A DNA stretch of 64,000 nt from Podarcis cretensis (Eukaryota), in NCBI GenBank assembly GCA_951804945.1, contig OX638164.1:25606001-25670000 (forward strand), written 5' to 3'. Shown here piece after piece: positions 2,179 through 64,000 of this stretch. The notes under the pieces were generated by a model. The model was given only the letters and a program-made list of their open reading frames with translations. It had not been told where the DNA came from and searched no databases. The position numbers and the translations under genes are program-made. The number at the start of each line of letters is the position of its first letter. Within the stretch, counting starts at the first letter, position 1.

Positions 2179-30429
<28,251 letters not shown>

Positions 30430-33400
30430 CAAGTTTTTGGAGTGTTGCAGATGGAAGGTGGATTGTTTGAAGTGAAGGACGGAAATGCATGTGGATTTCC
30501 ATGTACGTCCCATCCCTAAAATTCATGGTTTGTGACCCAACCCTTGACTTTAACAGATGACTATACAAACCCTCCTAAATTGGTACTAGCAGGGAAATGA
30601 CTGAGCATCACTCGCTCTGCAAGGAAACTCGATGGCAGGGGTTGTGGAGGCAAGGTACTGCACTTTCGATAGAAGAGGGGACTACTTTGAAAGGAAAGAG
30701 GCGACACACTTGCAGGGAAGAAGGAGATCTGCAAACCATGCAGCCCCTGTCGGAGGAAGCCTGGAAGGGATCAAGAAGAGTAGCGAACATGGGACGACAC
30801 CTTGCTACTTGGCAATAAAAGCAATACATTTTTCATTGGAACGCTGCAAAGTTGTGCGCTGATATTGAAGCAAATCAGGAATGTAGCGTGCTGGGGATTG
30901 AACAACCTTTCTCTGAGCTGCTGGTGTAGAACTTGACTGCAGCTGATCCTCATAGGACTCACATGGCGCCTCTCACAATCTCCACTTCCTTCTGTTGACT
31001 CTCGCCAGGAAATTCCTGATCTTTATGAACCCTGACAAGCCCCTGGATCTTGTGACGAAAGGGTCCATATACCGTTGTCAAAAGAAGGCTGGAGTTGGAC
31101 GTCCAGGATTTTCATAGAACTTAAGTGTGTGTTGGAAGCCCCTCCAGAGATCAATGGACAAGAATTGGGAGGTGGGGGGGGGGAAAGCCAGGGGTGTGTG
31201 GGGAGGCTATACAACGTTGCCCCTTGGGGGAGCATGGGGGGAGCTGTGATCACTGGAGAAGTAGTTATAAGCTGCCCTTTGTTGCTTTTCTGTTTTAAAA
31301 GAAGAAGCAACTTTACTTTGGACTAAGCAGTGTGTATTGCTTTTGGTTTCTTAGGCTTTGTATATTTCGACAGTTATTTAGGGAATTAGCATTTTAAGGA
31401 CGAAACAAAATGAGCTTATCAGAAAACCCATGTGAAGTGATAGTGCTGTGCCTTTTTGGGTTCATTTTGAGACTCTTACGCTTTTTCTTTTTCTTTTTCT
31501 GAAGTAGAAAATACCCCCGTTTATGTCCATGCTGACGCCAAAGTCCCTTCAGAGCTCAAATTCCACCATGTGGAATGCAGGTTTAACGTTCTCCTTAAGT
31601 GTTTCTGACTTGTTCATCATTAGTATATCTGAAATGTTAAAAAGTATTACAGCAATATTTAGGATCAATAACTGTTGACTTGTAACCACTTCAACAGGCA
31701 ATCTGCTCTATCAAGAGTTTGGCCGAGACCTTTTGCGATGCATGACACGCTGGCCACAGAACCATAGGAAAGAATACAGAGGATCCCTTGAATTTGTCAC
31801 GTAAGAGGATTTAGATAATAATAAATGCCGTGACAGTGTTAGGAAAGGCACTACGGGTTACTGAGCATCCTGCTGGGAGCAGATGAAGATTTAAGCACAA
31901 CACAGATTTGTTTTAAGCACAAAGAACAATGGATTAGCAAAGTCGATCTGGCTGAAGACAAATGTAGGCCTGGTTCTCAACTGAGGGGCTCAACTGGCAC
32001 CTGAGCTGCACCACTTTGGGCTGCAGGTGTGGCCGTGCCCCATCTGGGCCCTTCTGGGTGTGGGGCAGCAGAGGGAAGGCAGCTGACAGGAAGCAGCTGG
32101 CAATAGGACCTCTGCAGCAGCTACCACCTGTTTTCAAGATATTCAGATGCTTTAAAGAAAAGAAGCACAAACCTCAAGCCCTCTCACTCCCCAAGTTGCT
32201 GAAATGGTGCCTTGTCAGGCTTCCCAGTTTTCTAAACAAAAGGTTCCCAACGGAGAACTTCCAGTTCAGCCCTAATTTGGAGGGGGCTTGTAAGGGGGAA
32301 CATTCCATCCTGTCAGCCCCCCTCCAGCCCTGACCCCCCCCTACAGTCTGAAATGGTGCAGCCCAGCTTGGTGGTGTGAACTGTGCCTCTCTTCTTCAAG
32401 GGGAAACTTTACCCCTCCCCTCCCGACCCATTTTCGTCCATGTGCCGCATTCACACTGTGCGATGCTTAAACTTCCCGTTTTAATTGCCACACCAACTGT
32501 TTGCTCCTAGCTGCTGTCTTTGCCATTAATCCCCCCCCCCCCCCCCGCCTCAGCCAAGTTTTGAACTCTCAGAGAAATGAGTGACTTGGAGACAGGCTTT
32601 GATTCAGCAAGGAGCTGTGTCCTGAAGAGACCTCTTGCCTTGCGGAATTCCTTCCTGTGGACAATCCTTGCCCTTAGGAACCGGGACCTTTGGGTTCTTG
32701 AGAGGCGAGCCAGGAATTAATAACCTTCCGTTGACTTGTAAACTGCTGAAGCACGCTGACTTAAGGTGCTTTTCCCGCAAGGAAATCCTTTCCTGCTATA
32801 TCCTATGCACTTTGGGTGGGGAGGAGAGGTCAGCCAAGCTGACGCCAACTGCCTTATTTCCTTGTAAGCAGTGGGAGGAACCCCCACTGGCCCTTGAGAC
32901 CTGCCCACCCAGCTGCTAACCTCTTACTTTATTCAGTTTGCATATGGTGGTGGTGCTGTGAGCAAGCTTAGGTCAGCCATTCCTCTCCCCTTTGCTCTGT
33001 GGAGAAGGCAACCTCAGCCTTTGGACCCTGTCCAGCCCACAGAGGCTTTTCACCGGGGGCATTGCAGCAACGGTCTGTGTTAGCCAAAACCTTGATGGGC
33101 TGGACGCCACGTTCAGACCTTGCGTTGTCTACTCTACACCCCATGTTCTTAGTCTCCGGAGCTGTTTCCCACAATAGAAGGAGGCTTTCATTGTGCGTGG
33201 AAGATATAAGCGCTGGTACTGTATGTTGGTGGTCCTTGATTTAACGCCCAGGAGATTCGTGAGCTGGCGTCTCCTTTGCAATACGTTACTCCGTGGCGAC
33301 TGGGGAGTAAGGTTTGTTAGGATCCCAGCTCACGTCCTTGCAGAGGGCAGCCAAAGAGCAGAGATCCACCAAGGAATAACATAGCTTTGGCTTGCACAGC

Positions 33401-33688
33401 TTTTCCTTCCCCTGGGTGGGGCGGGGGCACCCAGAGCACAACCTGTAGCCAGCCTCAGGAGGTGGCTGTAGCTCCATATCCAGGTGCAGAGAAGTGATAA
33501 GCATCACTTTCCTTGGCAGTCGCTTTGTACCTCAGCAGATGGGGCAGAAGTTCTGAATGTTGAACTATATCAGGCATAGCTAACCCCTTCTGCTTAACAG
33601 CTTGTGTTTCGGAACATTTGTTGTCATTTATATTACAACAGAGGAATCCATTTTTCTTAACTCTACATATCCTTAGCGCACTTGCCTG

Positions 33689-33691
<3 letters not shown>

Positions 33692-33740
<49 letters not shown>
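33692..33740. repeat. (CT)n microsatellite in the putative SIK2 3' UTR
   Basis: About 24 TC units. Confidence 0.95.
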
Positions 33741-33743
<3 letters not shown>

Positions 33744-34120
33744 CTGCTCCTTCAGAATAGCCGCTTCTTCTGTCGAGTCTGCTGTTGATGTCTGTTGTTA
33801 GAGGATTTGTGTATACTACTGTATAACAATTACTAGCTTTATTAGTTTTAATACAGGTTCCTTTGAAGAGACTTTGGTGAGATGTACATGGGGCGGGGCG
33901 GGGGGGTTAAACAAATTTTTCATATGGAGACAAGTGCAATATGTGTGTGTGGTACGTTCTTTAATGTATTTTTTTAAGAAGAGTTAAAAGGGTTTTAGTC
34001 TTCGCTTTGGGAGAAATGCACTAGTTTGGTCAGCGCCGGTTTTTGGCGCATCCATCTGTAGAATCAACATGCAGTTGGTATGCTGGACTCTGTAAAAGCA
34101 ATTACCGTGTATTAATGCAA

Positions 34121-34126
34121 AATAAA
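34121..34126 (+). terminator. candidate distal SIK2 polyadenylation signal
   Basis: AATAAA with upstream TGTA motifs and downstream tggttttttt. Confidence 0.55.
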
Positions 34127-35891
34127 GAACATGGACCTTCTGGTTTTTTTATATATATACACATAAAAAAAAAAATTGGTGAGCTGCAGTGGCCTTCTCT
34201 GTTCCTTTGCATGCCATGTTTGGTAGCCTTTCCCCTGGAGGAGATTCTGCACGCAAAAGGCACCTGTAGGCAACAAATTGAAAAACCCGATTCTCAAAAG
34301 GCTTCCTTCCCAAGTCCTGTAAGAATAGTCAGCCACCTTTGGGTCTGGAAGCAAACAGTGAGAAGAGTTTTTACTTTGCAGGCAGCTTGCCAGAAAGAGA
34401 CTGAGCAAGGAGTGATGTCCTGGACTGCAGAAGCACCTACTGCATAGGCATTTTCTCTCTTGGGACTCCACACCTTCACCCCTGGAAAATAACCAGGCTT
34501 TTTAAGTTGCAATAGACTTTGAGCAGTCTTTGTGGAATTGTCAAGTTGCCTGGGGTAGAGCAAAGCTAGGAGACGGCTGAATGCCTAGGTAGCACTGGGG
34601 CAGGAGGGAGTGCCTCTGCCCCTTTACCTTTAGGATCAAACCATTAATGGGAAATATATTGTTTCCCTTTCAGAAATCTAATGTGTGGAGCAAATCTCAC
34701 CCCTGTTTCTCTCCCTTTGCCATGCCCTGACCTTCCCTCCTAATATATTTTTGGTGCCACCACTGGCAGGGAAGTGCAGACATATACTCTGCAGAATATA
34801 TAATATGTAACATGAAAAGCAAACCACCTTCTTGCCAAAGTAGTTTCTTCAGCAAGGTGTCAAGCGGCCCTGTTCAATTCACGCTCTGTTGTTGACATCA
34901 GGGGGAGGATATTATGGTGATGAAAAACAGGAGCAACATTACAAGATGTCATTGCAATGATTCTCCTTTTCTTCTACTTTCTCTCCATTAGGATATAAAT
35001 AATTCTGTTTGCCGGATACGATGGGAGTTGCAAATGGATTCCATAGATTAATTGGGGAACTTAAAAAATAATAAGACTATATTCAGACTTGTTTTTCAGT
35101 GCAAGCCAGAGCCAGGCTTTGCAGAGAAGTCATACGCTAATCAGAAGCTACGTCTAGCAAATCTGAGACATTTGATAAGCAACAACATCTGTGTGTGGTT
35201 ATATAAAATCTTAAGGTCTCTCTACTCAGTAATGTGTGTGATGGAAGAAACTGATTTGAGAAGTTGAAGGAAGAAAATATTAACCATTTGTAATCTGCAC
35301 AGGAACATACATTTATAGCAGGCTAAACAGGTCAGGAGTTCAACTGTGTACATGGTGGCTCCTTTAGCCCCACAGCATTGGCAGGCATGACCTGAGGAGG
35401 CTACTAATTGCAAAGCAATGCCCCTGTCCCATTTCTGTCCTACTTTATCACTGGTATCCATTGTCTCCTACGGCAGGGAGTTCCACCATTCATTGGCTGC
35501 AGTGGATGATGGGTTTTTTTAAGATGGCTGTGTGTGAATCACTGTGTATACCTCCCACCAATACATTTGCCTATGGGGGAATATTTGCAATACGTTATGG
35601 GTTTTCATTTGTAAAGCACAGGCTCTCATTTTACTAACAAGCTAGCCAAGCAGAGGTTTTCCGGAACACCTTAGAGCAGCCTTCACCAACTTGGCAAATA
35701 AATATGGCGTGATGAGCACAGGCTTTATCTACACATTCCTAGTTGGAACTTGCTTGCGAGAAGAAGACAAACCAGTCATATTCATACTGTTTGGCTTTGT
35801 AAATGCACTTGCTATCCTGACAAACTGCTCTTTTGGAAGGTTGCTCTTAAGATAAAATGATGAAGGAGACTTTTTCTCTGAAACAAGAATA

Positions 35892-36041
35892 CCATATTTT
35901 TCTGTGTATAAGACTAGGTTTTTTCCCTAAAAAATGAATTCAAAAATCAGGGGGCATCTTATACACGGATACATCTCTCCCCCATTTTCTTAAATCTGAG
36001 TCCCCAAAAATAGAGGGCGTCTTATACATGGAAAAATGCAG
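35892..36041. mobile_element. older Tc2/pogo-like MITE
   Basis: ta|ccatatttttctgtgtataagac...gtcttatacatggaaaaatgcag|ta. Confidence 0.7.
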
Positions 36042-36282
36042 TATGTAGACTTGAGCTCTTTCTCTGAACACATCATTGTTAATGACCATATCATGTGAGT
36101 TCTTTTAAAATCCTCCATGTGTTAAAAAAGCGATTTAATGTCTACATTTGAAGGGGACAGACATGTCAGTTGTTTGAAACCTTTCCCTCAGATTTTGGAA
36201 CATAAATAGTAGCAACCTGTCTTTTTTTGCAATAATCCATCTAGAGTTTTGGGGAGGGGGAGAATTGGCAACAAGGAGCATA

Positions 36283-36645
36283 AAGGTAAAGGTAAAGGTA
36301 CCCCTGCCCGTACGGGCCAGTCTTGACAGACTCTGGGGTTGTGCGCCCATCTCACTTAAGAGGCCAGGGGCCAGCGCTGTCCGGAGACACTTCCGGGTCA
36401 CGTGGCCAGCGTGACATCGCTGCTCCGGCGAGCCAGAGCTGCACACGGAAACGCCGTTTACCTTCCCGCTGGTAAGCGGTCCCTATTTATCTACTTGCAC
36501 CCGGAGGTGCTTTCGAACTGCTAGGTTGGCAGGCGCTGGGACCGAGCAGCGGGAGCGCACCCCGCCGCAGGGATTCAAACCGCCGACCTTTCGATCGGCA
36601 AGTCCTAGGCGCTGAGGCTTTAACCCACAGCGCCACCTGCGTCCC
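36283..36645 (-). mobile_element. Sauria SINE, full length, young (near-identical to 6607-6970)
   Basis: (AAAGGT)n tail, tRNA-like head, perfect 13-bp TSD aacaaggagcata (36270-36282 / 36647-36659). Confidence 0.92.
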
Positions 36646-37537
36646 TAACAAGGAGCATAGAAGGAAGCAAATTAAACCGGGAAGGCTATTTACTCTCCTA
36701 AATAGTCCAAGATGACGCGCTCTCTCTCTTTCCTTCCTCTGCTTCATGCACTGTGCTCTATATAAAGGGCTAGCCAGCATTTTCAAGCCAGTAAAACGAT
36801 CAGGTGCCTTATATCCTGGAGGCTTCTAGAGAGAATGGAAGCGGAGAATGTGCTCTGAATGACGTCAGCTGGGTAAATAATACCCTGCATTGAAATTGCC
36901 AGAGTATGCATTACCCTTTCAGCGAGGCCCTGCTGAGGCCATCCTACTGCAAAGAAAACTGCACAGGCCAGATGCCTTTTTCTGCAGTATATTTCTTTTC
37001 TCCTTTTTTTGTACAGAGTAGGAATTCAAAGGAGCGGAAAAGAGGGGGAAGGTGCCTGGAGAAACAAAATCTGCCCGTGCTCAGCGTGGAAACACCTTGG
37101 GCAAGAGACATTTTCACTGGCTGCTTTCTGTTTATCTCAGGACTGGCCATATAAAAACGGAGAATCAGCCGGCCACCCATTTCCAAATTCAGCACCCTGA
37201 AGACTGCACATCTCTGTTCCTCGCTTCTTTCTCATTTAACCCCGGAAAATAACAAGGAAACATCTCTGTTGCTCACCTGTTTCTAGCCTCAAAAGTTTCC
37301 AGATAACTTCCAAGTTATTAGTTAACCCAGATTGTGGAAGCAGAATAAATTAAAGCAATATTAAATATTACCTAACAAATTTGGATCTCGGAATTTGTGC
37401 TTCCTGGGGAAAGAATCCATAAAGCTCAGTGTTTGACTGCTGCTGCTTTACTTTATATCTGCTTTGGGGGAGCAAGTAATGATTGACACTGCCCCCCAGG
37501 CCTCTCTTCTTTTAGTGACTGATGGCTCTCTGGATAG

Positions 37538-37891
37538 AAGGTAAAGGTAAAGGGATCCCTGACCATTAGGTCCAGTTGTGGCCGACTGGGGTTGTGGCAC
37601 TCATCTCACTTTATTGGCCGAGGGAGCCAGCGTACAGCTTCTGGGTCATGTGGCCAGCATGACTAAGCTGCTTCTGGCAAACCAGAGCAGCACACGGAAA
37701 TGCCTTTTACCTTCCTGCCGGAGTGGTACCTATTTATCTACTTGCACTTTGACGTGCTTTCGAACTGCTAGGTTGGCAGCAGCAGGGACCGAGCAACGGG
37801 AGCTCACCCCACTGCGGGGATTTGAACCGCCGACCTTCTGATTGGCAAGTCCTAGGCTCTGTGGTTTAACCCACAGCGCCACCCGCGTCCC
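37538..37891 (-). mobile_element. Sauria SINE, second subfamily
   Basis: aaggtaaaggtaaagggatccctgaccattaggtccag...ccacagcgccacccgcgtccc. Confidence 0.88.
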
Positions 37892-40800
37892 TACCAGTCT
37901 GCTTATACAGCACTTCAATTTGCATCTACAAGGCAGTGTAGAAGTCTCAGAGAAAGGGCCCCTGCTCCTTTAGAGTGCCCCTTTTAGCAAGAGAAATTGG
38001 GTGTCAAACCCTTTGGCTGGAGAGTGTTAAACCCTCCAGCTCTCTAATTCCCCCTTGCCATTTCCTCCAGCTGCTAATTCATCTCCGACCTTCAACAAGT
38101 GGCAATCACCTAGGCAGATGTGTTGGCATGGCAACGGCTCCAAGGAGACGCTCTGCTCGCACTTGCCAGTGCCTGACCCACAGTCACCTTGTGCAGGAAG
38201 AGAAGCTGCGGCCCCCTCTCCCCCCACCCCACCCCAGGTTACGGTTACAGCCACACTTAGATTAGTGTGCATAATGCATAAATCTCTATCTCTGCAGCCT
38301 TGCATGCAGCAGCCACAATGCACCTGGGGACTGGATGCAGCGGGGGTTGTTCCCAGAAGAAGCAAAGAAAGCAGTTGATATTCAGTCTGGCCATGTATCA
38401 AGATTCTTGTTCTGGCTGAATCAACCCGTCACAATTAACACTGGTATCTCTGTGTTGTTGATGTACCGGTAACTGGGAGGTGTTAGGAGAGCCTTTCAAC
38501 CCAGCACTTCTTAGCGTATATGTGTTGGCTCAGTAAACCTTACAAGAACACTGTAAGGTAGACCACAGTCATCCCTGTCGTGGAGGGGGCGTTACTTAAT
38601 TGACACAGAAAATCCCACTGGTGAGCTCACAGCAGACACAAGGTTTGAAGCGCAGACATATCGACTCATACATAACTTGCCCTCTTAGCTGTTGACGCTG
38701 CACCAGCTCCCAAATCTGACGGCTGAGACTTGAAACATGTAGAGTTCAAGAGATCAATTTTCCAGATACTGGCTGTGAACCTTGATGGAGATTATATACC
38801 TGCAAGCCAATAATGAATAAGCAGAGGAGGTGAACTTAGAAAGGAGACTAGAAAAGGCTACGTGCCCACATCTGTCCTGAGTTGTCCTTAAGTCTGGGGT
38901 CTTGGCCACTGACCTAGTTGCTGTCTCTTGGCCTCAATGTTGCGTCTGTAAAATGGGAATATATGACCTCTCACATTGCTGTTGTGATTGCAAAGACAAT
39001 AAGCACCTTACAACTACTAAAACGTTTTACCTCAAGTGAGCCTCTTTGGTTCGGCAGAGGGGTCTGAGTTCAAGACCAGTGAATGGCCAGGAAGTGTTTT
39101 GTGACTTGCCGGTTGAGGTGGGTTATTTATTGACACTTGCCTTCCTCTCTTTCTTCCAGTTAGCCTCAAGCTCTGAAGGGTCCGCACAGCCGACACTCCC
39201 TGCCAGAGCAAGCCTGACATCAGCAGTTGCCAAGGAAACGGGTTTATTATTATTTTTATTATTATCAAAGCCACGTTCTTTGGAAATTTAACAAAGTGCA
39301 CATCCGTCATCTCCCTTTCTTGCCACTGTGGGGGCTGGTATCTTGGACAACACCTGGCTGGCATCCTAACCCCTCCAAACAACAACATAACATGTTTGTC
39401 CTGAGAGTCAGTGGCTGCCTCTGCAGGCTTGCTGTGAGCAAAGGGGGGGGGGCATTTGGCATATTGAGTAAGTAGGCTTCTGCTTTGGCTGTCCCTGATG
39501 GATGGGTAGGGGCAGCCATGTCACCTGTCACTGAATCGTAGAAAGGTATCGAGTCAACTACCTGAAGGAGCAGCCTTTCAGACTGGAAGGACAATGCACG
39601 CTTTCTCCCAGGTAAGTGGGGTTACAATGGCAGACTAAACTTTCCGAGTCAAAACAGCCTTATAGCCAGCTTTATCTAGAAACAAATACTGGATCCATTA
39701 ATCCATTAATAACATTAAGTCATTTCAAGCATGTTGGAAACCCGATATATTTCTGTTCTCACCCTTCCGTTTGGGCGTTCCAAGGCGGTTGCTATTTTTG
39801 TGTGGGTTTCCATCACAAACTGGCCAAATCCCGGCTGTACAATTACGGTTGATGGTTGATGATCAGACTTTTACCGTAAGGGAAGTGACTGGGAAACATC
39901 TTGGAAAGTGCAGGCCGACCCTTGCTTTGAGGCAACCTCATCTAATCTCCCCACAAATTGGGATGAGTACTCAGCCAGCAAGTTGTTCAGAAGCATCCTG
40001 TGATTCCCACTGTCTTACCACATAAATTTGGGGTATGGGTCTGCCCAGTAGTACTCTGGCTGGTTATCCAGATTTTAAAAACAAAACAAAACCACCCTGC
40101 AAAGCAATTTACACGCACTTTGTGGTAAGAGGTTGTCTGTAGGATTCAGCCACTGTTTTTTTGTGACTTGACTCCTGGACTTGATGAATGCAGTCCCTCG
40201 TTTTCCGAAGGCCATTCGTACATTACGTGTGTCCGACACATATATTCCTCTCTGTGCCAGTATGCTTTTATTTTCTCTTTCTTGTTCTCCAAAGGGCTTA
40301 CATCAGTGTTTGATTTTTCAAATCTGAACCCTGTGGGAACTGCAGCTGCTTAGAAAATGCAAGCACCTTTGCTAACAAGAGTTCTCACAATAACCCTCCC
40401 TTTTATACCAAAATTCCCAGGGATGCTTTGGAAGCCAGTATCCTTCCAAGTCATCTTAATGTTGTAAGCTTTCAGGCACCCACCTCTACAAAGCAAGGAA
40501 TTATGTGGATATGGGCGGGGGGGGGGGTGTTCTTCGTACCACCAGTTACAAAATATTATGATCATTCCTGTCTCTGCGTGTTCTCCGGCTCTCGGCCTGC
40601 AATTCTTGCCTCGTGCCCCCGATGCACTTCAAAGCCCTTTGGCTCCTGCTCCTGCCTCTCTTTTATCAGATATTTATTTATCCTTGTTCCAGTTCAAAGT
40701 CCAAAACCTTCCAGTCTTGTTTTGTTAACATTTCCCCCCCCCCTCAAAAACAAGCGCATTTTTGATAAACAGCCAGCAGGGCTGGGCTGAGCGTTCTCTT

Positions 40801-41359
40801 TGTGTGGTACCAAGGAGAATTTATTCTGGCACTGCGCGGATCCCATCACAGTTGCTCATGAGGAGCAGCGAAGGTTGAGCAGCTCGCCTTCTCCCTATTT
40901 GTTCCCTACTTAACATGCATGCCAGACCTCTTTATTACTTGCTGTGTTTTGAAAAATAGGGGTCAGGTAAATGGCAAGCCCTTATTGGGGAGCACAGTAC
41001 GATCCCCAAACACCCCACTTCTTCACATTATTAAAAAACGAAACGAAAAGTGAATCTGGTATTCTCGATGCCACGAATAAACTATTAAAGGTATAATAAA
41101 ACACCAAGTGCCGTTCAGTGAAATTAGCAACCGGAAGCCTCTGCCTCGAGAAATTTCCAAACATTCGGCAGCCAGGGAAGTAGACATGGGCAAATACCCT
41201 TATACCAATTTGTGCCAGGAATGAGGGATTTTATGCAAGGGGCTCCCCACATAAAGGGACATTTGAGCAATGGTTTAAAGGAAGGAAAGGTGGTGGCCCC
41301 CTGGCAGAGGCAAGGAAGGGGCCACTGCTGCTTTTGCTTCTCCCCAATTCAATCCCTGG

Positions 41360-41708
41360 GGCACGGCTGGCACTGTGAGTTAAACCACACAGCCTAGGAC
41401 TTGCCGATCAGAAGGTTGGCGGTTTGAATCCCCGCGACAGGATGAGCTCCCATTGCTCGGTCCTGCTCCTGCCAACCTAGCAGTTCGAAAGCACGTCAAA
41501 GTGCAAGTAGATAAATAGGTACCACTCCGGCGGGAAGGTAAACAGTGTTTTCGTGCGCTGCTCTGGTTCGCCAGAAGCGGCTTAGTCATGCTGGCTACAT
41601 GACCTGGAAGCTGGATGCCGGCTCCCTTGGCCAATAAAGCTAGATGAGCGCTGCAACCCCAGAGTCGGCCACAACTGGACCTAATGGTCAGGGGTCCCTT
41701 TACCCTTT
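41360..41708 (+). mobile_element. Sauria SINE, second subfamily
   Basis: Full body with ccctttaccctt tail; 14-bp TSD aattcaatccctgg (41346-41359 / 41709-41722). Confidence 0.9.
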
Positions 41709-41724
41709 AATTCAATCCCTGGTG

Positions 41725-42038
41725 TCAGCTGGTAGGGCTGGGAATGCCCCATCTGAAACCTTGGAGAGCCACTGCCAGTCAGTGCTGGTGAGGCTGAGAT
41801 AGATGCATCATTAGTCTGGCTTGGTAAATGGCAGCTTCCTGCATCTTAAGGGCCATATAGCTCAGCAAGGGGGGATTTGCTTGCCCACAGAAGGTCCCGC
41901 TTCAAATCCCAGCAACTCCCGTTAGGACTGGGGAAACCTCCCGTCTGAAACTCTGTGGAGAGCTGCTGCCAGCCAGTGCGGGCAATGCTGAGCTGGAGGG
42001 ACCGATTCTCTGACTCGGCATATATAAGGCAGCTTCCT
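41725..42038 (+). mobile_element. two tandem tRNA-derived squamate SINE copies (Squam3-like); relatives near 44150-44510 and 63626-63790
   Basis: ggccatatagctcag...gaaggtcc..ttcaaatccc head; ctgaaac..tggagagc..ctgccag body; ggcagcttcct tail appearing twice. Confidence 0.6.
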
Positions 42039-45000
42039 CCCTTTGTCATTTATGTGAGAGAGCAGGCGAGTTGCACGCTGCGAGCTGTTTCCAGCTGGCA
42101 AGCTGCTGCAGCCCCGAGCCCAGCGCGAACTCATTCTTTCCATCTACAGCGAGGCTTCGCAACAGCAGGGGGATTAATGCAAAGAGGCAGCTTGCTCGCC
42201 TCCCTCCGTGCTTCACCCACCAGCTCATCGCCCCCATAAAGAGGGAGGGGAGGTCGTCACTGGAAAGTCAACGTTAGTGCTTCAGACAGAGAGAGGTAGC
42301 CGGGCAGGGTGACCTGTGGACAGAGAGCAGGATTGTCTGTTTTTCTCCTGCAGAGTGAGCGGGCTGAAGTTGTCACAGCGCTCTCTCGGATGCGAATCCA
42401 GAGGGAAACAAGAGCTCTTCTGAACGCAGATTGAGGCAGCAACTGGGAGGCAGCCAAAACCAACGCCAAGGCCTCAGGCTCCCTGGAGAAAGGGTCGCTG
42501 CATTCCTGGCGGCTGCCTGGTCACAAGGTGAGCCTGACGGTGACGCAACGTTGTCTGTTTACTGCCAGGAGTGAGCCCAGGAAAGAGCCTGCCCTGAGCA
42601 GACCCTTGCGGTGCCAAGGCGAACTGAGGTCAAGGCTCCTCCTTCTGGAAGCCAGGCAGGGGGTGACGAAAGACCGTGCTAAGGAGGCAAGGCCTCTCAA
42701 GTGCTGTAAAGGTGGATTTGGTGGGAAGTGAAGGGGGATTTCCCCCTTTTATTCCAATGGCCTAGTGTGTTTTGAGCATAGGGTGTTTTCCAGAGGGGAC
42801 AAGTGCTGGCTGGTTCTCAGGCCCGAGAACTTCTGCTGAGAGGGGGAAGGACAAATTGCATATTTCACGCCTGTAGGGTGGAAGGCAGGGAGACCAACAG
42901 TAGGTGGCGCCAGAGCCAATGAAAGTGGAGCCACCCTGAGCTCTTGTAGGTTGAAAGCAGACAGGTTGCTGGGGCAGTGCCCCCTTTTCCCCTAATGCAG
43001 CAGCCTCTACTGCTCACAACCCCTTCCATGCACAGACTGGCAGGTGGCTTTTCAATGTTGACAATGTCCTCTGCTGTACCTGAAGGCAGGATGAAGAGCA
43101 CCTGTCACACCTCATGGTCCACATAGCTCTGTCCTCCAGTACCACCACCACCCCCTTCCCTTCCCACCCCACCCGAGTGTTGCCCGAGGCAGCTTCCTCC
43201 CTCTACCCGATATTAGGGCTGGCCCTTCTAGTTCCCCAACTCCAGATTACTTCTGTCCCCTAGTGAGCCCAATGAGGGGAGGGACGGGATGGGAGTGATT
43301 TGACCTCTGCAAATCAACAGACATAGTGGCTCTTGGAAAGTGTCAGGCAGTGGGGTTAAGGGGAAAGGATTATCCATAGATAACACATTTTTCAGTAGCT
43401 GTGAGATTTTATCGCGTGTTATTTTGCTGCCTTCGCCTTTTCTTCTTTGAGATTAAGAAATCCACAGGGCGAACCTCTGGATCCAATGCTTTCTCTGGAT
43501 GAATTAGTTTTCTATGCAGTTGAGAGTGTTTCCCCACAAGGGACATTAAAACCTGGACACACACCCTTGGCCTCAGTTGGGATATGCAACCCAGCAAAAG
43601 CTTCCCCATTGATTTTATATATATATATATATAGTGGTCTGAAGAGGGTGACTCTTTGGTAAGTTATCTTGATATTTTTTTGAGAGATTGAAAAGTTGTA
43701 TTGCAAGAAGAGAGAACATTATCCAGCAACCATAGAACAGCAGAGGGTAGGTATTTTGGGGGAGGCAACAGCTCTGCTGGAGCGATATGTTTGCACCACA
43801 AGCTGATGCCTGCCATGCTGACTCACAAGCTTAGTGGGCACAATAGATTGTAACTGGTGTGTGAACTGCTGTAGAGACAACCTGGAACCTCCTCAGAATT
43901 TGGTGCTGGTCCAGAAACCCCACCCTGCTTGTGTTCCAGGGTCTGTCAGTTTGATTCGTAATCCACATGCAGCTGCTTTGTTGTTATGCTTAATAATGTT
44001 AGGCAGCCCTGAGGGAATGCACAATGTTTCACCCATTAGGCTGAATACACCCTGTTGTAAAACACACTTTGATTCTCTTAGTAAGACCTCCTTTGGGCAG
44101 CCCTGCAGTGAGGTTTCTCTCACTGAGAAAAAGGTGTAGAAAATTTGGTCATAGATCATTGGTAGAGCCTCTGCCTTGAATGCAGAAGGCCCTGGTTCAG
44201 TCCCTCCCAACTCTAGGTAGGGTCAGGAGAGAACCAGTTCTGGTTGATGCCCATTGAGACCATTAGGGCAGAAACAAAGCTAACAGGCAGCGCAGCCAGA
44301 GCCAATGGCAGGTAGAGACATCTCTTGATTGGTTGCAAGCAAAAAGGTAGGCAGGTGCAGACTAGCTGAGGTCAGAGCTTTTTAAGGCTGTGCCCTGTTA
44401 GCCCTAACAGAGTAGCCTCCACTAGAGGTCACCCTGCCTGAAACCCTCAAGAACTGCTGCTAGTCAGTGTAGACAATGCTAAACTAGATGGGTCAATGGC
44501 AGCTTCATATCAGTGGACCTGGGTCACTAGCAGGAAGGAAATACTGGCTCCAGGTCTTAGCTGCAAAAGGATTCTTTGGTCATTAATGTGATCGCTCAGA
44601 AGTCGGGGAGGGGGTGTGCCCAAGCTTTAATTGAAGCATGCAAAGTCAGCTTTTTATTGCAAGTTCCTGATAGTGACAAATATTAAAACTCGGGCAACAA
44701 CAAAGTTCTGTACTGGATGTCAAAGGTTAGTTGAGCTGCAGGAGAAGAGGAATTCCTAAGAAGCAAAGAGCCTCTTATTTTCTCTGGCCAGCACCCCCTA
44801 GTTGAGAACTGTGGCAAAAAATAACTGATCTTTATGAGCAGATCTTGTATTGAGGCAGCAGTTTCCTAATCTAATAATAGGCCCCGAGCTTGTTGATGGC
44901 ATGATTCATGCTGCATTGCATAAACCAGCTGGAAGGGTCGCTCCAGTCTCCAGAACATCAGCTCGAGACATCGTGACTAACAAAACTCTCAGCTGCTCTC

Positions 45001-46144
45001 TGCCTTTCTGTACATAGCAAGGCACACGTGAGCCTCTTCTTTGCCCTACTGAGCAAATGGGGACGGAGGCCACGCATGCACGGTTGCACCAATGTGCAAA
45101 AGCTCTTGTGGTGAGGACGATATGCCTTCATGCAGCCTGCTTTGTGTAGCAAGATATTCCTAGCTGTTATGGAGGGTTGAATTTTTTTGCCTTTTGCAAA
45201 GCTGTTACAAGGCACAGGAGAGCACAGCTTTGGGGTGTGGGCAGGAGAGAAGCCAGTGCTGTTTAGAAGGACTAAAAGGGCAATCAGCAAGTACAGTGTT
45301 TAAATGGGACCAGCACTCTCCTATTTCTTCTCTAAAGTATGTTAAAAGGGAAAAAAAAAATCACCAGATTCTGAATCAGGCCACACTGGAGATCCCAGGC
45401 AGCCTCTGCTGTTTCCAAATAGGGACCGACTCAGCTGTGGAGGGAGAGGCTAGCAGCTCTCCTTAAGTCTGTTTCTGACACAACCCTTTCTCTTCTCCTC
45501 TTCACAGCTTTGCCCAGCCACATCTCCTGCCCTTCCTGTGAGGATGATGCGCCAGTTTTCCAGATTCGCAACCTCTGTGTGTTGTTCCAGTGTTGGGGTG
45601 GAGATGTTCATTCAATCCCACTTCTGGCCACCCTGGTGGCAATGAATCTTCAGCCTGCAGCCCTGCTCCCATGTGAAATATTTAGTTACGTTGCATTTTC
45701 TTCCTTACAATTCAGGTGAACAAGGTCAAGTGACCAAAATCAACTCATTTGCTTCTGGGACTGGCTTCCTCAAACATTTCTTCAGAATAACATGTTTTGT
45801 GATTTTTTTTTAACATGCGTAAGTTTAGGGTGAAAAATCATCTGCTGCCTCCCACTTCTTCAGGGCCCCCGGCTAGATGCATTAGCTGTACATGGTGAAG
45901 GATAGTCTCATTGGATGCTTAAAATGTCAGCTCTAGCCTCAGAAGGGAGACCTTGGCCTTCCCGTCATGAAATAAATCACCTGTTGCTCTCACATGTCGT
46001 CAGCACTTTTCTCATCTACTTTTGAGGCTGTGGATGATGCAGTTAGACTGGAGCTTTGGGTGCATGAAAGACAGAGAGAGACCAACACACGCACTTTCCT
46101 TCCACATCTAAAACTGCATTGGGGGGGGGGGTACAAGCCTAATT

Positions 46145-46150
46145 TTTAAT
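46145..46150 (-). terminator. candidate ALG9 polyadenylation signal (ATTAAA)
   Basis: ATTAAA on the minus strand ~860 nt after the ALG9 stop, followed by GT/T-rich sequence (gtgcgtgtgttggtctctctctgtcttt). Confidence 0.45.
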
Positions 46151-47011
46151 CACTAATGACACACTTTCATAGTACATACAGTGCAGACTGAATGAGAAGC
46201 CACTGTATTCCACAGCGAAAGGTGTGCAGTGAGGAGGAGATCCCCCTTCCGCACTTTACAAAGCCAGACATTTCACAAAGAAGCTAGAATGTAGAGGTGG
46301 GTGAAAGGAAACTTAAAACAAAAAAACACCCTACACAAACCTGTGTTTTGGCAGCAGCTGACAAGACAGACAATGGAGGTTTTTAAAATAAAAACCCACT
46401 CATGCACAAGTCAATGTTTCACTAAATTATGTAATTAACAGAGTCACAGTTCTCGAAAGTGCAAGTTATTTCTGCTCCATCTGAGTCAAGGAGGGCCTTT
46501 TCCCCTGAAGACCCACCAGGGAGCGTTGTGCATTCCTGCTGGTGAGGCTGTTTTCTCTCTCCAAAAGGCCTCTTAAAACACACACATACACCCCCCTCCC
46601 AAAATAAAAACTTCCCTCTGGGGTTGGCGAGATGTTCTGTGGTGGAGGGGAAATACTGAAAGACCCACAGCAGCCCCAGGCTACCTCTCAGCCAGGACCT
46701 TGGTAAACGTTCGCACAAACCAAGATTTTTGCTCCTGTTTACTCCTCAGCAAGATGACGCCTTGCTCATACTTTCCAGGAGTTCCTGAAAGCGAAGCAGA
46801 GCCCCCAAACAATGGCAGATCAGGTGGTCAGTAATATTGCAGCACAGCCAGCCAAAAAAGGGAAACCTTCCCAAGCATTTCCCTACCCACCCACCACAGC
46901 CACTGCCACTGCCACTCTTACAAAAAATGGGAGTGGGCAGGTGGGATTGAGACACCTGAAGAAGAAGCCAGCATCTTCGGCCGGTTCTCGTTGGATCCCC
47001 AGAGGCTCGAG

Positions 47012-47135
47012 CTAGCCTCCAGCTTTCTTCCTGGCTTGCTTGAAGCGCCGAGGCTTCAGGATGGTATAGTTCATGTACGTTGTGTGCTGGTGGGACAGGA
47101 AGGGGATGTAGAAGGCCCGAAAGAACTTTGAGGAC
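47012..47135 (-). CDS. ALG9: ALG9 terminal coding exon
   Basis: ttccag|GTCCTCA...; (R)SSKFFRAFYIPFLSHQHTTYMNYTILKPRRFKQARKKAGG*; 124 bp. Confidence 0.94.
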
Positions 47136-50620: not shown

Positions 50621-53600
50621 GCCACTTACGTATCTGGAGGGCTCTTCCTGGTTTTGGTCGTTCATGTCTGTTGGAATGATGCGAGTGGCCATTGGTCCCT
50701 TTGCAAATGGTTTTGGCAACTGGCCCCGGAACTCTGATGGAATGAACTGAAGCTGCCAACTGCAGGGAGTAAGAGGGAGGGGGTGATATTAAACCCTGTG
50801 GGCTTTTAACTTGCAAGCAAAACGCCACAGCAATAACCCAGCAAGGCAAAGACTGTGAACACAGCTTGGGGTTGCCAGCTGTCCGCTACAGAACAGCTCA
50901 CCGTAATCTGCAGGCCACAGGAGGAGGATGTGCCTGTGATTCCTTCATGGGTGAATCAGGATTTGGGAGTGGGGTGTGTGTGTATGCATGTTCACAGTCC
51001 CATTATCATTAACTGCTCTTCATGTTACATATTCTAGGGGCTTCCCTCGTCAGAGGGCTGCAGACCATGGGGAAATGGAATGCTACAGTTGTGACAGGCC
51101 ATTGGAGGGGGGCAGTGATAGGGGGAAACGTGCAGCACTCCTGAGAGTGCAAAGAAAACAAAGGCCAGAATCAGGAAAAGAGGAAAACAAACAGGCTCCT
51201 GTAGGTACAAAGCCTTGCTAAATTCACATTTTGCCTACAAGCGCCAAGAAAGTTTGCAGCTCAGGTATCATTCGGAGCCCATCTGCTGCAACAGGGTCAG
51301 AGCAACCCTGGCAGAAGGTGCTTCAGTGGGGCAGGAGATCCAGAAAGCCTTTTTGTCCTTGATGCTCCTTAACTCATGCTCCAGTGACTCCAAGAACACA
51401 GCCCTCGGCTGCTGCCTGAGCCCTAATCACTGGCAAGGCCAGAGCTAATCCCAGCTCTTGCAATGCTGCAGCAGTTTTGACGTAGTCTTGGGCGAGTTTT
51501 GTTCCTCTTAATCATCAATCCCTTGTGACGGTGTTGGGATTTAATGCCTCATTCTCTTTCTCTCTTTTTTTAAAGGTGGGGGGGAGAGATATCCATCTGG
51601 CGCATTATGGTCTAGGTACCGTTAGGTTATTAAACCCTTGAATTTACAGCTACAGTAACGTCTGTGCAGGCAAAGCTGCCTCGGTTTGAAGCTGAAGGGG
51701 CAGGCATAAGCGCAGCCTGACGTGAGCATCAGTGTCACCATGAAAAGCTAAATGCAAAGCTGTGCTAATCAGTAGCACACACAACACACCCAGCCAAAAA
51801 AATCCCACTTGAAATTCTGTCTTCAGCCAAATCAAAGTACATTACTGTAGGAGCTGGATTTGGCCATCTGCACTACCTGAGCAAATCTGAATCATGTCTC
51901 ATCTTTTGAAAAGTCATTTTCTGCAATTATTTGCATAATGGATGCAGATGAGGGGGGGGAACAAGCACCTCACAGAAGCTCCTGTCCCCTTTGTATTATC
52001 GGCAGCCATGAGACCTAGAAACCTTGCTTTGTGGGGTTTTTTAATCCTGAAGTGGGTTTTATAGGAAACTGAATTCTGCTCCTAATTCCACATTCTGCAT
52101 TTTTTTTGCTGCAGTCCTGCAAAATTACTTGTTTCATAAATTTATTTACTGCTTGATTGTAACAAACAAACATGCTCAAAGCGGTTTACAAAAAGAATTG
52201 AGCAATAAATATATTAGTAAAAAAATAAAATGAAACATTCGAAAAATTAAACCTGGCAATAAACCAAAAACACATCAAAATTGCAATCTCAACACAACAC
52301 AACACTGCCCAGTGTTTATGTCACAATGTCCAGGTACTCTCTCCATCTCACCGGCCTCAACACCTTCCTTTGATTCCTGCAGCGGCCAAAAGCAACCCAG
52401 TTCTCATCACCATCGGTGAGCCTGGGGGAACTTGGCCACTGCAGCTGTTAATGAGGTTCTCTCTCAAACTATGGAAAACAGCAGCAGATCCTGGTTTCAA
52501 ATCTTGGTTAAGAGGCAACCTTAGTTAAAAGCTGGCAAACCTGGGAGCCAGAGGAGGACATTGTTCCATGGTCCTCAGTCTTCAGTTGCTGTGTGATCTG
52601 CTTTGAAAACTCAGAATGTAAAAAGAGCTCTGCTGGATTAGGACAAAGATCTAGTCCAGTGACCAACCAGATCCTCATGGGAAACTCTCAAGCAAGACAT
52701 GAGCATAGCAGCAGCATTCTCCCCTCCTGCGATTCCCAGCACCTGGAATTCAGAGGGGAAACTGCTGCTTGTTTATTTTTAACTGATGCTGGTTTGGCTA
52801 GTTAGTTTGCTTTTGTTTCTAAGCAGCATTTTCTCTTGTTTTTAGGTTTTACTTTTATCTTGTGCTGCATTAATTTTGTATAAGCCACCTCATGCGCTTT
52901 TGAAGGAAGATGGGGCATAAATGACCTGGAAGGCTGACAGTGTTGAGCAGCTGGCATGGACACTGGTCCACCCAACTATTTACTCCTGCTCTATGCTCTA
53001 ATTGGTTATCTCTTGTGATGAACAGCACCTGCATCCTTGTGGGATAAACCCTGTTTGTGTCTTGACTTACTTATCTGGCAGGAGGAAGCTGCTGGGGAAA
53101 CGGTGCCATTCCTTCCCCACACAAACGTGAACCGGCCTCCCCTCTGGCACAGTGTGGATTGTGGGATCAGTGGCGATTCTGTGGAATTCTGGATACAGGT
53201 CAAGGGGCCCATGGTAACCTAAGAGGAAGAGACACTGCAAGTGAAAAAAAAGGAAGAAGATTTGGCTGTGCCTTTGTGCCTAAACAATTTTAGGAACCCC
53301 TTCAAGTCAGCATGAGCTTCCCTGAGCTATGATGAACTGCGAAAATGCCCTTCCCTTGCACTCACCAAAGAGAACCAGAAATTTACACTTTGGAAACTGC
53401 TTTGTAAGGAGCCAAGCCACTGGCCCATATAGCTCAGCATCTTATCTACTAGGGATAGAAAACCCCTGGAACTCCAAATATTGGACTATACCACCCAGCA
53501 TCTCTGACCATTGGTAATGGTGACTGGGGCTGATGGGAGTCAGAGTCCAACAGGCTCAGACCAGCAGTGGCTCTCCAACATTCAGTCAGAAGTCAAGACT

Positions 53601-56600
53601 CTCCCAGTCTTACTTGAAATGCCAGAGACAATATCTAAACCAGGGACTTCCTCAGTTTCTTAGCCACTATGCCACACCAGCTCTTATGATAAGGCCTTTT
53701 AACTTCAAAAGGGACTCCTGTATGTGCTTTGCTAAGCATCCTAGGTTAGCTACCCAATTTCAGAAGACATCTGAAGGATTTTACATTAAATCCCAAAGGC
53801 TCTGGGTAGCACACAGTATCCTTAAATCAGGAGAGAAGAAAAAAGGGGCAGGAGAGAAAGAATCAAGAGTTGTTAAAATCCCATGGATACCACCAATATT
53901 AACCACCAGCACAGACCAAAAGGCCTGAAAGACTCCCGAAAGATGACTAGGCTCAGACTTTGGGCAAATGGGAATTCCAAAGTTGTGATTCAGCTACCAA
54001 GAATGCCATTCTCCGCAGATGGCATGCTGATGGTCAGGTGTCTCCTGCTCCATGGTTTCTGGATAAGGGAGGAGTAAGCTACCCCTGAAATCCATAACGA
54101 TGTTTGTTTGTCCACCTGGGACTAATAAGCAGCAGGGCAGCCTCTCCAGAACCCACCTCTGAACAAAGCTACAGAGCGCGACAAGGACAGGAGCCCAAAG
54201 ACAAAGATGGTCCCCAGGGCCAGCCAGTTTGAAGAGACCGTGTAGTGCTCCAGGCGGTAACGTTGAAATATGAAGTGGTAACATTTCTAAGGAAGGGGAG
54301 AGAGAAAAGTAAAATATGAATGTCATTTAGACTACAACAAGGGGAGGGGGGAATAGAGCTCATTTCAATAACCCAGTGGTGGAAGATGGTGGGTGCTGCA
54401 AAGAAGCCTCTAACAGCCTTTCCATAAGATTATATTTCTGCACAAGTTCGGGAAATACAAAGCGGAATGGGATGGTGCAGCTGGCGCTCTCCTTATGTTG
54501 CCATCATCCCTGGCCACTGGGGCTGAAGGAGTTGTGGCTCAAAACCTCTGGAGAGTACTGGGTTGGCAAAGGCTGCACTGGAGCATCACTGGGAGACAAT
54601 AGTGTGGACTTATTTTGGTGCCAGCTGCCCACTTTTATACTTTTTTTTTGGCACAACCCCAGACCAATTTTGAGAGCTCCCAGCCCAGGACTCCTGTTTG
54701 CAGCTGGGACCACAGGAAGAAAAAGGCTCCTTGTGTGTTCCTGGATAGCACAGATTCCTGCAAACCTCTCTCTCTCTCTTTTACTATTGCTTCATGCCAA
54801 CTCTTGAGGATACATGGAAAGCTCATGCGTCAAGAAGGGAACTCAGAGCAATGTGGTGAAGGGGGAACCACCTAGCATGAACATGGCTTTGCTTAGGTGT
54901 GGGCCCTCTCCACCTGCACCCATACTCAGCCATCGCCACCCCCAAACGCACCTGAAGGGCAGAGAGTCCTACAGCGCCACATAGGCAAATGAGGGGGTAG
55001 ATGGGATACAGAAACCTCTCTTCTTTGTGAGGCTGGCTGAAGAAAATCAGGATCCAGATGTACATGGGAGAAAGCGTCAGCCAGTAAGGCCGTCCCAGAT
55101 TCTGAACTGGAAGAAACAAAAAAAAAAGGGGGGGGGGGTTAGCTCCAGAATGGGAGAGGCTCAAGGACAACCAAGGCATTTGGTTCAGGACCCCACCACA
55201 CCCTTATCTTGGAATGCAGCACTTTGCTGTTTATTTCAGCTCTCTGTTGGGCTTTTGGGTGGGGAAATCTGATGCGGGCTTCATAGGCTGCGTACACACT
55301 ATGCCTTTAAAGCACATTTGATGAATGTTTTCTCCCTCAAAGAATTCTGGGAAATGTAATATGTTAAGGGTTGCTGGGAAATGTAACTCTGGGAGGGTGC
55401 CCATAATTCTTTTAGGGAAATAATGAATGTGCTTTAGAGGTATACACAGTCACACATGAAGGCACTGTAACTCTGAAGACCACCACTGGCAGGGGAGGAT
55501 CACTCCTTCATGCTCTGTTTGTGAGCATCCATCTGGCTGCTGCTAGAAATGGAAAACTGGGCTAAGGAAACCCTTGGCCTAATCCAGCAATGCCCCTCTT
55601 GCATCCTTATCATCAGGCATGACCCAGCTTTATGGAGCTTGCTTTATGGAGCTCCGATGTGAACCCTGAGCTGCATAGGTACAGGGGCTTCTGCCATTTC
55701 TCCTCTGTGCCAGTGGAAGTGCCTGGTACACAGCTATTAAATACATCTCAAAGCCACCCGATCTTGGGCAAAGGTATATGATTAATGCATATACCTCAAA
55801 TTTCACAAATAAATACTTTCCCCCAGGCTTATAAGCAGAGCGATAGGAAAAACGAGAACAGTCTTTGATTTACCAGCTACCTGGTAGGTGTTGTGGAAGT
55901 TCATCCAAGGGGGAATTCTAAGGAGCCTAAGATGTTGAAAGAAAAATGTGCTTGCTTAGGGGCGAGCACTTCTAAAACCTCCAACGCTTTGTTACGGCAG
56001 CAACAGAGTACACCGAGAACTCTGAACGCACATTCTCTGTCTTGAAGGAAAACAAAACCAAGGCACCACCTCCCTTGTCTCCCCTCGAATGAAGCAGGAA
56101 GTCATTTATTTGGAAGTAACAGCAATTACTTCAATTTGCAAGGGCTGCAGAGGCAGCTCAATATATGTCAAAATCCTGAATTGCCCCCAAAAGGAAAAGC
56201 TTGGGGTGTTAAAGCAAATCAGGATTGCACAGCGCTTCACAAAGCCCGTGAGAACAAGGCGTGCAACTGAAGGGACCCCCCCTGCCGCCGCTTCGGGACA
56301 CAATCTGCTAAGCAGAAAGGCATGAAATGGGTAGTTACAGCAGCCTCCACTACTGGGCTTGGCTGGCAAGAGGCCTTTATGGTTCCCACAGTGCATGCGG
56401 CGCCCTCTGCAAAACGTGAGCGCTTAGTGCACTCTAGTGGACATCCCTGGAAGTACAAGCCTTCATTTCAGAGATGGGCAAGACAGAAAGACAAACATGG
56501 TCCACCAGTGGACCGCTGGTTAGTATCTGGCAGACACCCCCCTCCCCAGTGCCCCTCTGGTTTCTAGGATTTTTTTGTTTGTTTGTTTCAAAACAAAGAA

Positions 56601-63477: not shown

Positions 63478-64000
63478 CTGAAAAGCAAAAGAAGCAAAAA
63501 GGAATCAGGGTTTGGGAGAAAGCAGAAAGCATTCAGAGCCCCACAGATGACTTGGGGTCATTTCAGGATTCCTTATCAGCAGGAGATTTTCTCAGCACAA
63601 ACCTAAGAACATGTGACATAGGAAAGGCGCTGTAGCTCAATGGAAGAGCATCTGCTTTGAATGCAGAAGGTTCCAGGTTCAGTCTCCAGTTAAAACTATT
63701 AGATTGGAAAAGAGGGGAAAGAACCCTCTCTGCCCAGGTTGCTGCAAGTCAGAGTAGACAGTACTAGGCTAGATGGGTCAGGGGCTGTACACAATGTAAG
63801 ACAGATTGGCAGGGGTGGGGGTACTTGAGGTTATATATGAACCAACATAACGCTTGGAATCCTTCTGCTGGAAAAGGTGATTCTTAAGCAACCTCTTGCT
63901 AACTGGAGGCTCATTCTTCATCTCTGGAAATGTTCTGCAACAGATGGTCTCTTTTTATGCCAAGATGCAAGGGGCTCAGGGAGCAAGGCAAGTCCCTTAC

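What the first reader, a model, noticed from the sequence alone, without database searches (positions are those of the whole stretch)
34150..46100. PPP2R1B appears absent from its syntenic position between SIK2 and ALG9
Established: in human 11q23 the order is SIK2(+), PPP2R1B(-), ALG9(-), and I recall the same order in chicken. PPP2R1B encodes the PP2A scaffold A-beta, a highly conserved ~15-exon HEAT-repeat protein. Seen: SIK2 and ALG9 are directly convergent, with ~12 kb between their likely polyA sites, no N-gaps, and no PP2A-A peptide (e.g. LYPIAVLIDELRNEDVQ, KSWRVRY, KWRVRLAIIEY) in the ORF track or in my reading of minus-strand splice-bounded segments. The same reading recovered every expected SIK2 and ALG9 exon. 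Inference: PPP2R1B was lost or translocated in this lineage, possibly leaving PPP2R1A as the only PP2A scaffold.
Basis: partly seen in the sequence, partly recalled or inferred. Interest (0 to 1): 0.7.

Follow-up and report, generated by a model that had tools for sequence, protein, structure and literature searches.

The report
Lizard lacks second PP2A scaffold gene
This reptile genome (likely a lizard) has no PPP2R1B gene at its usual place between SIK2 and ALG9 or anywhere else our searches reached, leaving PPP2R1A as the only scaffold gene found for the major phosphatase PP2A, and the loss likely goes back to the common ancestor of reptiles and birds.

Summary
Observation confirmed. SIK2 (+) and ALG9 (-) face each other across about 12 kb without N. 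No PPP2R1B core exon, intact or decayed, was detected there. Three genome-wide searches find one PP2A scaffold gene, an intact 15-exon PPP2R1A on contig C8 (15 of 15 diagnostic sites alpha), so translocation is unlikely. Contigs of four runs from three organisms tile the interval, breaking at repeats. ALG9-PPP2R1B adjacency is old (fused gene models in sturgeon and rabbit), and the end of the SIK2 3' UTR still matches the mammalian PPP2R1B alternative last exon. Real loss: about 0.9. This suggests, indirectly, a sauropsid-wide loss mirrored by alpha loss in teleosts (about 0.6). No bird or turtle locus could be inspected. It is an ordinary kind of event (duplicate lost, paralog kept), not found in print in ten searches, of moderate interest because A-beta is a human tumour suppressor and is needed for mouse sperm meiosis.

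The parts
29746..30429 (+). Open frame of the last coding exon of SIK2, ending in TAG at 30427-30429 (the exon's 5' splice site lies inside this frame and was not fixed)
   Evidence: gene name from synteny and recall
30430..34150 (+). Predicted long SIK2 3' UTR, likely polyA signal AATAAA at 34121
   Evidence: sequence, signal scan; other AATAAA at 30814 and 31820 exist; the end was not mapped with RNA
33995..34089 (-). Homologue of the mammalian PPP2R1B alternative last exon, antisense to the SIK2 3' end: AG acceptor and stop codon in place, 95 nt against 93 expected, frameshifted
   Evidence: tblastn E 0.021; frameshift-tolerant score 62-73 for 5 of 6 mammalian tails against shuffled-window maxima 39-45; the sixth (rodent) scored 49 against 57
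34150..46100 (.). Intergenic interval where the PPP2R1B core exons are expected; none detected
   Evidence: no Rfam family at gathering score in 30000-48000
36280..36655 (.). High-copy SINE-like repeat; absent from a contig of organism B that joins its flanks
   Evidence: X5 record 18
37538..37893 (.). High-copy SINE-like repeat; not bridged by any listed contig piece
41357..41708 (.). High-copy SINE-like repeat, inverted relative to the other two; not bridged by any listed contig piece
46120..47011 (-). Predicted ALG9 3' UTR, likely polyA signal ATTAAA at about 46150
   Evidence: the end was not mapped with RNA
47012..47133 (-). Last coding exon of ALG9 with its stop codon
   Evidence: translation, coordinates; assignment to ALG9 by position and recall
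50624..63481 (-). Internal ALG9 exons matched by sturgeon and rabbit ALG9 sequence

Best explanation
PPP2R1B is missing from the SIK2-ALG9 interval and from the searched assembly, one intact PPP2R1A gene remains on contig C8, and the loss is likely ancient, probably in the common ancestor of reptiles and birds. Inferred mechanism: A-alpha and A-beta are old duplicates (87-89% identical) that scaffold the same PP2A catalytic and regulatory subunits, so A-beta could be inactivated without loss of the holoenzyme; its exons then decayed or were deleted beyond recognition, while SIK2, ALG9 and the constrained end of the SIK2 3' UTR stayed. All PP2A trimers in this animal would be built on A-alpha. 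Shown: absence in the interval and assembly, the intact alpha gene, its splicing in a relative, the ancestral adjacency. Inferred: redundancy as the cause, the age, and deletion versus slow decay (not distinguishable here). Confidence in the loss alone is about 0.9; the figure below is for loss plus sauropsid-wide age.
For: Genome searches: PF22646 gave 3 matches, 2 at C8 and 1 at C1 whose peptide I recognise as SF3B1 (recalled name; neither full-length query hit it); cat A-beta gave 11 of 11 matches at C8; frog A-beta at E<=10 gave 14 of 16 at C8, the other two at E 1.03 and 3.38. C8 gene: 14 exons with AG/GT ends giving 584 codons without a stop, plus a candidate short 15th exon; 97% to rodent alpha, 87-89% to beta; 15 of 15 diagnostic sites alpha; inside the alpha clade, FastTree support 0.936; exons 3-6 spliced in a contig of run X15. 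Ancestral position: gene models fusing ALG9 to A-beta in sturgeon (P0076) and rabbit (P0283). Age: no remnant; same interval in organisms A, B, C; 47 of 47 and 10 of 10 named sauropsid proteins closer to alpha; no sauropsid branch in the beta clade of a 61-sequence tree; a chicken atlas table of 17,394 rows names 12 other PP2A genes and two unnamed alpha fragments but no beta (PMC6081845); 0 of 6 papers with PPP2R1B+broiler are bird studies against 4 of 6 for PPP2R5C+broiler (Fisher p 0.06).
Against: All evidence on birds, turtles and other squamates is indirect. Most sauropsid proteins came from an alpha-exon query. The large canonical alpha and beta clusters never appeared, and frog, fish and mammal beta are 90-92% alike, so bird beta could sit inside an unseen cluster. 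The chicken table also lacks SIK2, LAYN and FDXACB1, so it is incomplete, and the main expression file could not be read. No crocodilian or tuatara protein was recognised. Two SINE junctions in the interval are not bridged by listed contigs. The genome search scores only its best candidates.
Confidence: 0.6

Rival explanations
1. The loss is real but younger: limited to squamates, or to this lizard family, with birds, crocodilians and turtles keeping PPP2R1B.
For: The only loci inspected are from this genome and close relatives. PPP2R1B is not among the 53 genes missing from all 30 annotated squamates in PMC13005343, which fits some squamates keeping it. The unseen canonical clusters could hide bird beta.
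Against: 57 of 57 named sauropsid proteins are alpha; two beta-query searches listed mammal, frog, fish and shark beta but no sauropsid one; chicken atlas and literature control. Absence from the 53-gene list is equally expected if chicken, alligator or turtle lack the gene, as the list required it intact in them. Complete decay argues against a recent loss.
Confidence: 0.3
2. The gene exists in the animal but was dropped from the assembly, for example by collapse between two SINE copies in the interval.
For: The repeats at 37538-37893 and 41357-41708 are not bridged by any listed contig piece. No long reads were available.
Against: No N; 1.51 Gb in 51 contigs. Unique segments are covered in the same sequence by contigs of four runs and three organisms, and one SINE junction is bridged. 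A collapse that removes all 15 exons exactly is unlikely.
Confidence: 0.07
3. PPP2R1B moved elsewhere in the genome and is intact but was missed.
For: The genome search scores only the best candidates (14 and 15).
Against: All candidates of the first look were scored in both searches; a true beta gene would outscore the alpha exons that were found; none appeared.
Confidence: 0.03

Closest known systems
'Ortholog loss with retained paralog' class of squamate gene losses (Salve et al. 2026, PMC13005343; e.g. ADAP2, CAV3, ELOVL3)
   Same: Flanking genes stay syntenic, no assembly gap, searches recover only the paralog.
   Different: PPP2R1B is not in their 53-gene list. Their screen required the gene intact in chicken, alligator and turtle, so it would miss a sauropsid-wide loss.
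Sauropsid-wide loss of the dopamine transporter gene (PMC4894405; search listing and start of abstract only)
   Same: A conserved vertebrate gene absent in birds, crocodiles and lizards, with compensation named in the title.
   Different: That loss is reported across taxa; here only lizard loci were inspected and the wider range is inferred.
Teleost PP2A scaffold set (zebrafish ppp2r1ba and ppp2r1bb; PMC9602556, passages)
   Same: One of the two scaffold lineages is enough for a vertebrate: 32 of 32 named teleost proteins retrieved are beta.
   Different: Mirror image: teleosts appear to keep beta (two copies) and lack alpha; that paper calls them paralogs of PPP2R1A and, in the passages seen, claims no loss.
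Mammalian PPP2R1A / PPP2R1B pair
   Same: The C8 gene is a PPP2R1A orthologue with the same fold family (nearest PDB chains are A-alpha, 164 bits against 140 for the best-scoring A-beta chain).
   Different: Mammals keep both. Mouse A-beta knockout gives male infertility with meiotic arrest (table in PMC12557939) and A-alpha loss is lethal at gastrulation (PMC5483016).

Membership tests
Gene loss with retained paralog | Both flanking genes present in ancestral order and orientation | tested here: met
   SIK kinase(+), ALG9(-), FDXACB1(-), alpha-crystallin(-)
Gene loss with retained paralog | Gene sat at this place in outgroups | tested here: met
   ALG9/A-beta fused gene models in sturgeon and rabbit; homologue of the mammalian alternative last exon at 33995-34089
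Gene loss with retained paralog | No intact copy at the locus or elsewhere in the assembly | tested here: met
Gene loss with retained paralog | Locus contiguous in independent data | tested here: inconclusive
   Contigs of 4 runs tile unique sequence; two SINE junctions unbridged; no long reads
Gene loss with retained paralog | Absence from raw reads and transcriptomes | tested here: inconclusive
   the tool drops human-like records and there was no positive control
Gene loss with retained paralog | Intact paralog retained and expressed | tested here: met
   C8 gene intact; spliced contig in run X15, whose RNA status is the tool's guess
PPP2R1A (A-alpha) orthologues, for the C8 gene | Alpha residues at sites that separate alpha from beta | tested here: met
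   15 of 15
PPP2R1A (A-alpha) orthologues, for the C8 gene | Falls in the alpha clade of a gene tree | tested here: met
   FastTree, 61 sequences, support 0.936
PPP2R1A (A-alpha) orthologues, for the C8 gene | Synteny with PPP2R1A neighbours in other tetrapods | not tested
   neighbours on C8 were not identified
Sauropsid-wide gene loss | Absent at the syntenic locus in birds, crocodilians, turtles, tuatara and other squamates | not testable with these tools
   no other vertebrate genome is held; only protein collections and paper tables
Unitary pseudogene with recognisable remnants | Broken core exons in collinear order at the native locus | tested here: not met
   chain score at background

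The most novel reading that the evidence does not exclude
Vertebrates resolved the PP2A scaffold duplicate in opposite ways: all reptiles and birds run on A-alpha alone, teleosts on A-beta alone, and only mammals, amphibians and some older fish lineages keep both. The mammalian need for A-beta in sperm meiosis and tumour suppression would then be a mammal-specific or expression-level specialisation, testable by swapping paralogs in chicken cells and zebrafish.
Probability: 0.55. Interest if true: 0.55.

Novelty: new member of a known kind. Interest (0 to 1): 0.4.

Why it matters
PP2A is a main serine/threonine phosphatase, and whether its two scaffolds do different jobs is open. In mammals PPP2R1B carries loss-of-function variants in cancers and its knockout arrests mouse spermatocytes (PMC12557939). 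A fertile vertebrate lineage without it is a natural knockout showing that A-alpha can cover these roles. If the loss is sauropsid-wide, chicken cells are ready-made A-beta-null systems, and proteins named 'A beta' in bird and reptile annotations need checking (one such, P0022, is alpha). The kind of event is common, which caps the interest.

Tried and rejected
C1 match to PF22646: its peptide is SF3B1-like (name recalled) and neither full-length A-beta query hit it; rejected as a second scaffold. Possible exon-9 remnant near 37037-37140: score 42, reached by 1 of 200 shuffles but by 2 of 10 real-DNA control segments, and one of 28 exon-strand tests; rejected. The alternative-exon homologue as a relic of a lizard PPP2R1B exon: not excluded, but the frog and fish beta proteins I looked at end without that tail, so a conserved SIK2 UTR end later used by mammals is the simpler reading. 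Three bird fragments scored beta on 1-3 diagnostic sites (P0033, P0046, P0119) and alpha on whole-length identity. Laying contigs on PPP2R1A exons 2-7 at 80% likeness showed no paralogous exon piece in X2, X15, X17, X18; not used as evidence, since human-like records are filtered and X17 and X18 lacked even PPP2R1A. No RNA holder listed for the interval. IQ-TREE timed out; FastTree was used. ESM Atlas could not read the SIK2 exon. Supplement searches without information: PMC6321700 and PMC8040251 held none of the four terms, controls included; PMC4290089 held neither PPP2R1 gene; a chicken chr24 TSS look-up matched nothing because of punctuation. Paper search was swamped by unrelated papers. 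No CpG-rich relic promoter stands out next to the ALG9 3' end. Earlier-findings look-ups gave nothing on this gene.
Full report
Setting. The window is G000:C15:25606001-25670000 in a 1.51-Gb assembly of 51 contigs.

The flanking genes. A SIK-family kinase runs on + (Pfam kinase hits; nearest solved structure SIK3) and stops at 30427-30429, with an AATAAA at 34121. ALG9 runs on -: rabbit and sturgeon ALG9 sequence matches six exons in the window and four beyond it; its last exon stops at 47012-47014 with an ATTAAA near 46150. Beyond ALG9 lie FDXACB1 and an alpha-crystallin gene, the order I recall from human 11q23. The name SIK2 rests on this synteny and on recall. The interval 34150-46100 has 11,951 bases, no N and no frame over 162 aa; about 1,409 bases are repeats; no Rfam family reaches its threshold.

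No PPP2R1B in the interval. tblastn of 120 PP2A-A proteins against the window gave only the ALG9 part of a fused model, one repeat-like tail, and noise at E 0.023 or worse. A frameshift-tolerant alignment of 14 exons from frog and mammal A-beta scored 23-43 in the interval, like shuffles, against 71-371 on the real gene. One exon-9 score (42) was reached by only 1 of 200 shuffles but by 2 of 10 real control segments, and the collinear chain score was reached by 14 of 20 real controls and 29 of 40 shuffles. There is thus no detectable remnant of the core gene.

The gene belonged here. Two database models fuse ALG9 to A-beta, from a sturgeon (P0076) and a rabbit (P0283), which needs the two genes adjacent on one strand in both lineages. 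The 30-residue tail of mammalian A-beta isoforms aligns to 33995-34089 on -, at the end of the SIK2 3' UTR: 5 of 6 tails scored 62-73 against shuffled maxima of 39-45, one rodent tail did not exceed its shuffles. The acceptor and stop are in place, with two extra bases. I read this as a conserved SIK2 UTR end that mammals use as an antisense exon (inference); either way it marks the orthologous place.

Not elsewhere. The Pfam HEAT family matched C8 twice and C1 once; the C1 peptide is SF3B1-like (recalled). Cat A-beta gave 11 of 11 matches at C8; frog A-beta at E up to 10 gave 14 of 16 at C8 and two at E above 1. The C8 gene (17,941,800-17,957,603, -) has 14 exons with canonical splice ends, 584 codons without a stop and a candidate short last exon. 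It is 97% identical to rodent alpha and 87-89% to beta, alpha at 15 of 15 diagnostic sites, and inside the alpha clade of a FastTree of 60 chosen proteins (of 382 then held) plus itself. A contig of run X15 joins its exons 3-6 at the predicted introns.

Assembly check. Contigs of four runs (two samples of organism A, one each of B and C) cover all 30 bins of 33000-47500; the listed pieces of X2 break at a CT microsatellite and at the three SINE copies; one SINE junction is bridged in organism B, two are not bridged by any listed piece, and no piece spans the whole stretch. The best holders may include the source of the assembly. An artefact is unlikely but not excluded.

How old. Of proteins whose listing names a bird, turtle or snake genus unambiguously, 47 of 47 and 10 of 10 more are closer to alpha; entries with truncated names were left out. 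Of 382 proteins, 199 scored beta, 156 alpha, 17 tied and 10 did not align; three bird fragments among the 199 turned out alpha on whole-length identity. In the tree the amniote beta sequences form one mammal-type group with no sauropsid branch. Two searches with beta queries listed mammal, frog, fish and shark beta only. In contrast 32 of 32 named teleost proteins are beta, fitting the two zebrafish genes ppp2r1ba and ppp2r1bb (PMC9602556, passages). A chicken atlas table names 10 PPP2R and 2 PPP2C genes and two unnamed alpha fragments, but no beta (PMC6081845, supplement searches only). Of papers with PPP2R1B and 'broiler' 0 of 6 are bird studies by title, against 4 of 6 for PPP2R5C (p 0.06). 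Against: most sauropsid hits came from an alpha query; the large canonical clusters were never shown and could hold bird beta, as beta proteins are 90-92% alike across classes; the chicken table lacks SIK2, LAYN and FDXACB1 too, two files are cut and the main one is unreadable; no bird, crocodilian, turtle or tuatara locus could be read. I put the sauropsid-wide reading at about two in three, given a real loss.

Mechanism. Inferred: the two scaffolds are interchangeable enough that one can go. A mouse paper states that PPP2R1B can substitute for PPP2R1A in the complex, although alpha loss is lethal at gastrulation (PMC5483016, title and passages). A review gives alpha as ten times more abundant and ubiquitous, beta as enriched in testis, and lists male infertility for the beta knockout (PMC12557939, passages; the primary paper was not read). 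Losing the minor, less essential copy is the expected direction. Whether a deletion or slow decay removed it cannot be told: 12 kb is left, against 15.8 kb for the alpha gene.

In print. Ten searches listed no paper whose title or abstract reports this loss; the library lacks most subscription papers. The 2026 screen of squamate losses (PMC13005343: abstract, first part of Results, supplement search and two parts) holds PPP2R1B only in its list of human genes. The bird missing-gene supplements of PMC4290089 hold neither PPP2R1 gene (supplement search only). Orthology databases may already show the gap; I could not consult them. An earlier scan note on PPP2R2D erosion in a camelid is a parallel only and was not checked.

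Verdict. Observation confirmed; loss about 0.9; sauropsid-wide loss about 0.6; new member of a known kind; interest 0.4.

Noticed in passing
window 10115-10975 (-): 287-aa reverse transcriptase frame (Pfam RVT_1) in a SIK2 intron; looks like a BovB-type LINE fragment (name recalled).
   Followed up: partly
L014:3-5179 (-), G000:C15 about 25,690,000-25,695,200: LINE with two long open frames (664 aa, and at least 1101 aa with endonuclease and reverse transcriptase domains) between FDXACB1 and the alpha-crystallin gene; likely young.
   Followed up: partly
window 36280-36646: SINE present here but absent from a contig of organism B that joins the flanks: a recent insertion marker.
   Followed up: no
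window 33995-34089 (-): The last 100 bases of the SIK2 3' UTR are conserved with mammals, where the opposite strand encodes the tail of a PPP2R1B isoform; acceptor and stop are in place here without the gene.
   Followed up: partly
proteins P0022 and P0400: Misnamed database entries: a bird protein called 'A beta-like' is alpha and a zebrafish protein called 'alpha' is beta.
   Followed up: yes
proteins P0001, P0092, P0116, P0162, P0167, P0172, P0174, P0179, P0281: Several diverged A-beta-like models listed for a Mobula ray with the same longest-contig length, possibly a local expansion.
   Followed up: no
L001:1408-1737 (-), G000:C1 about 127,727,000: HEAT-repeat exons that I recognise as SF3B1 (name recalled).
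   Followed up: partly
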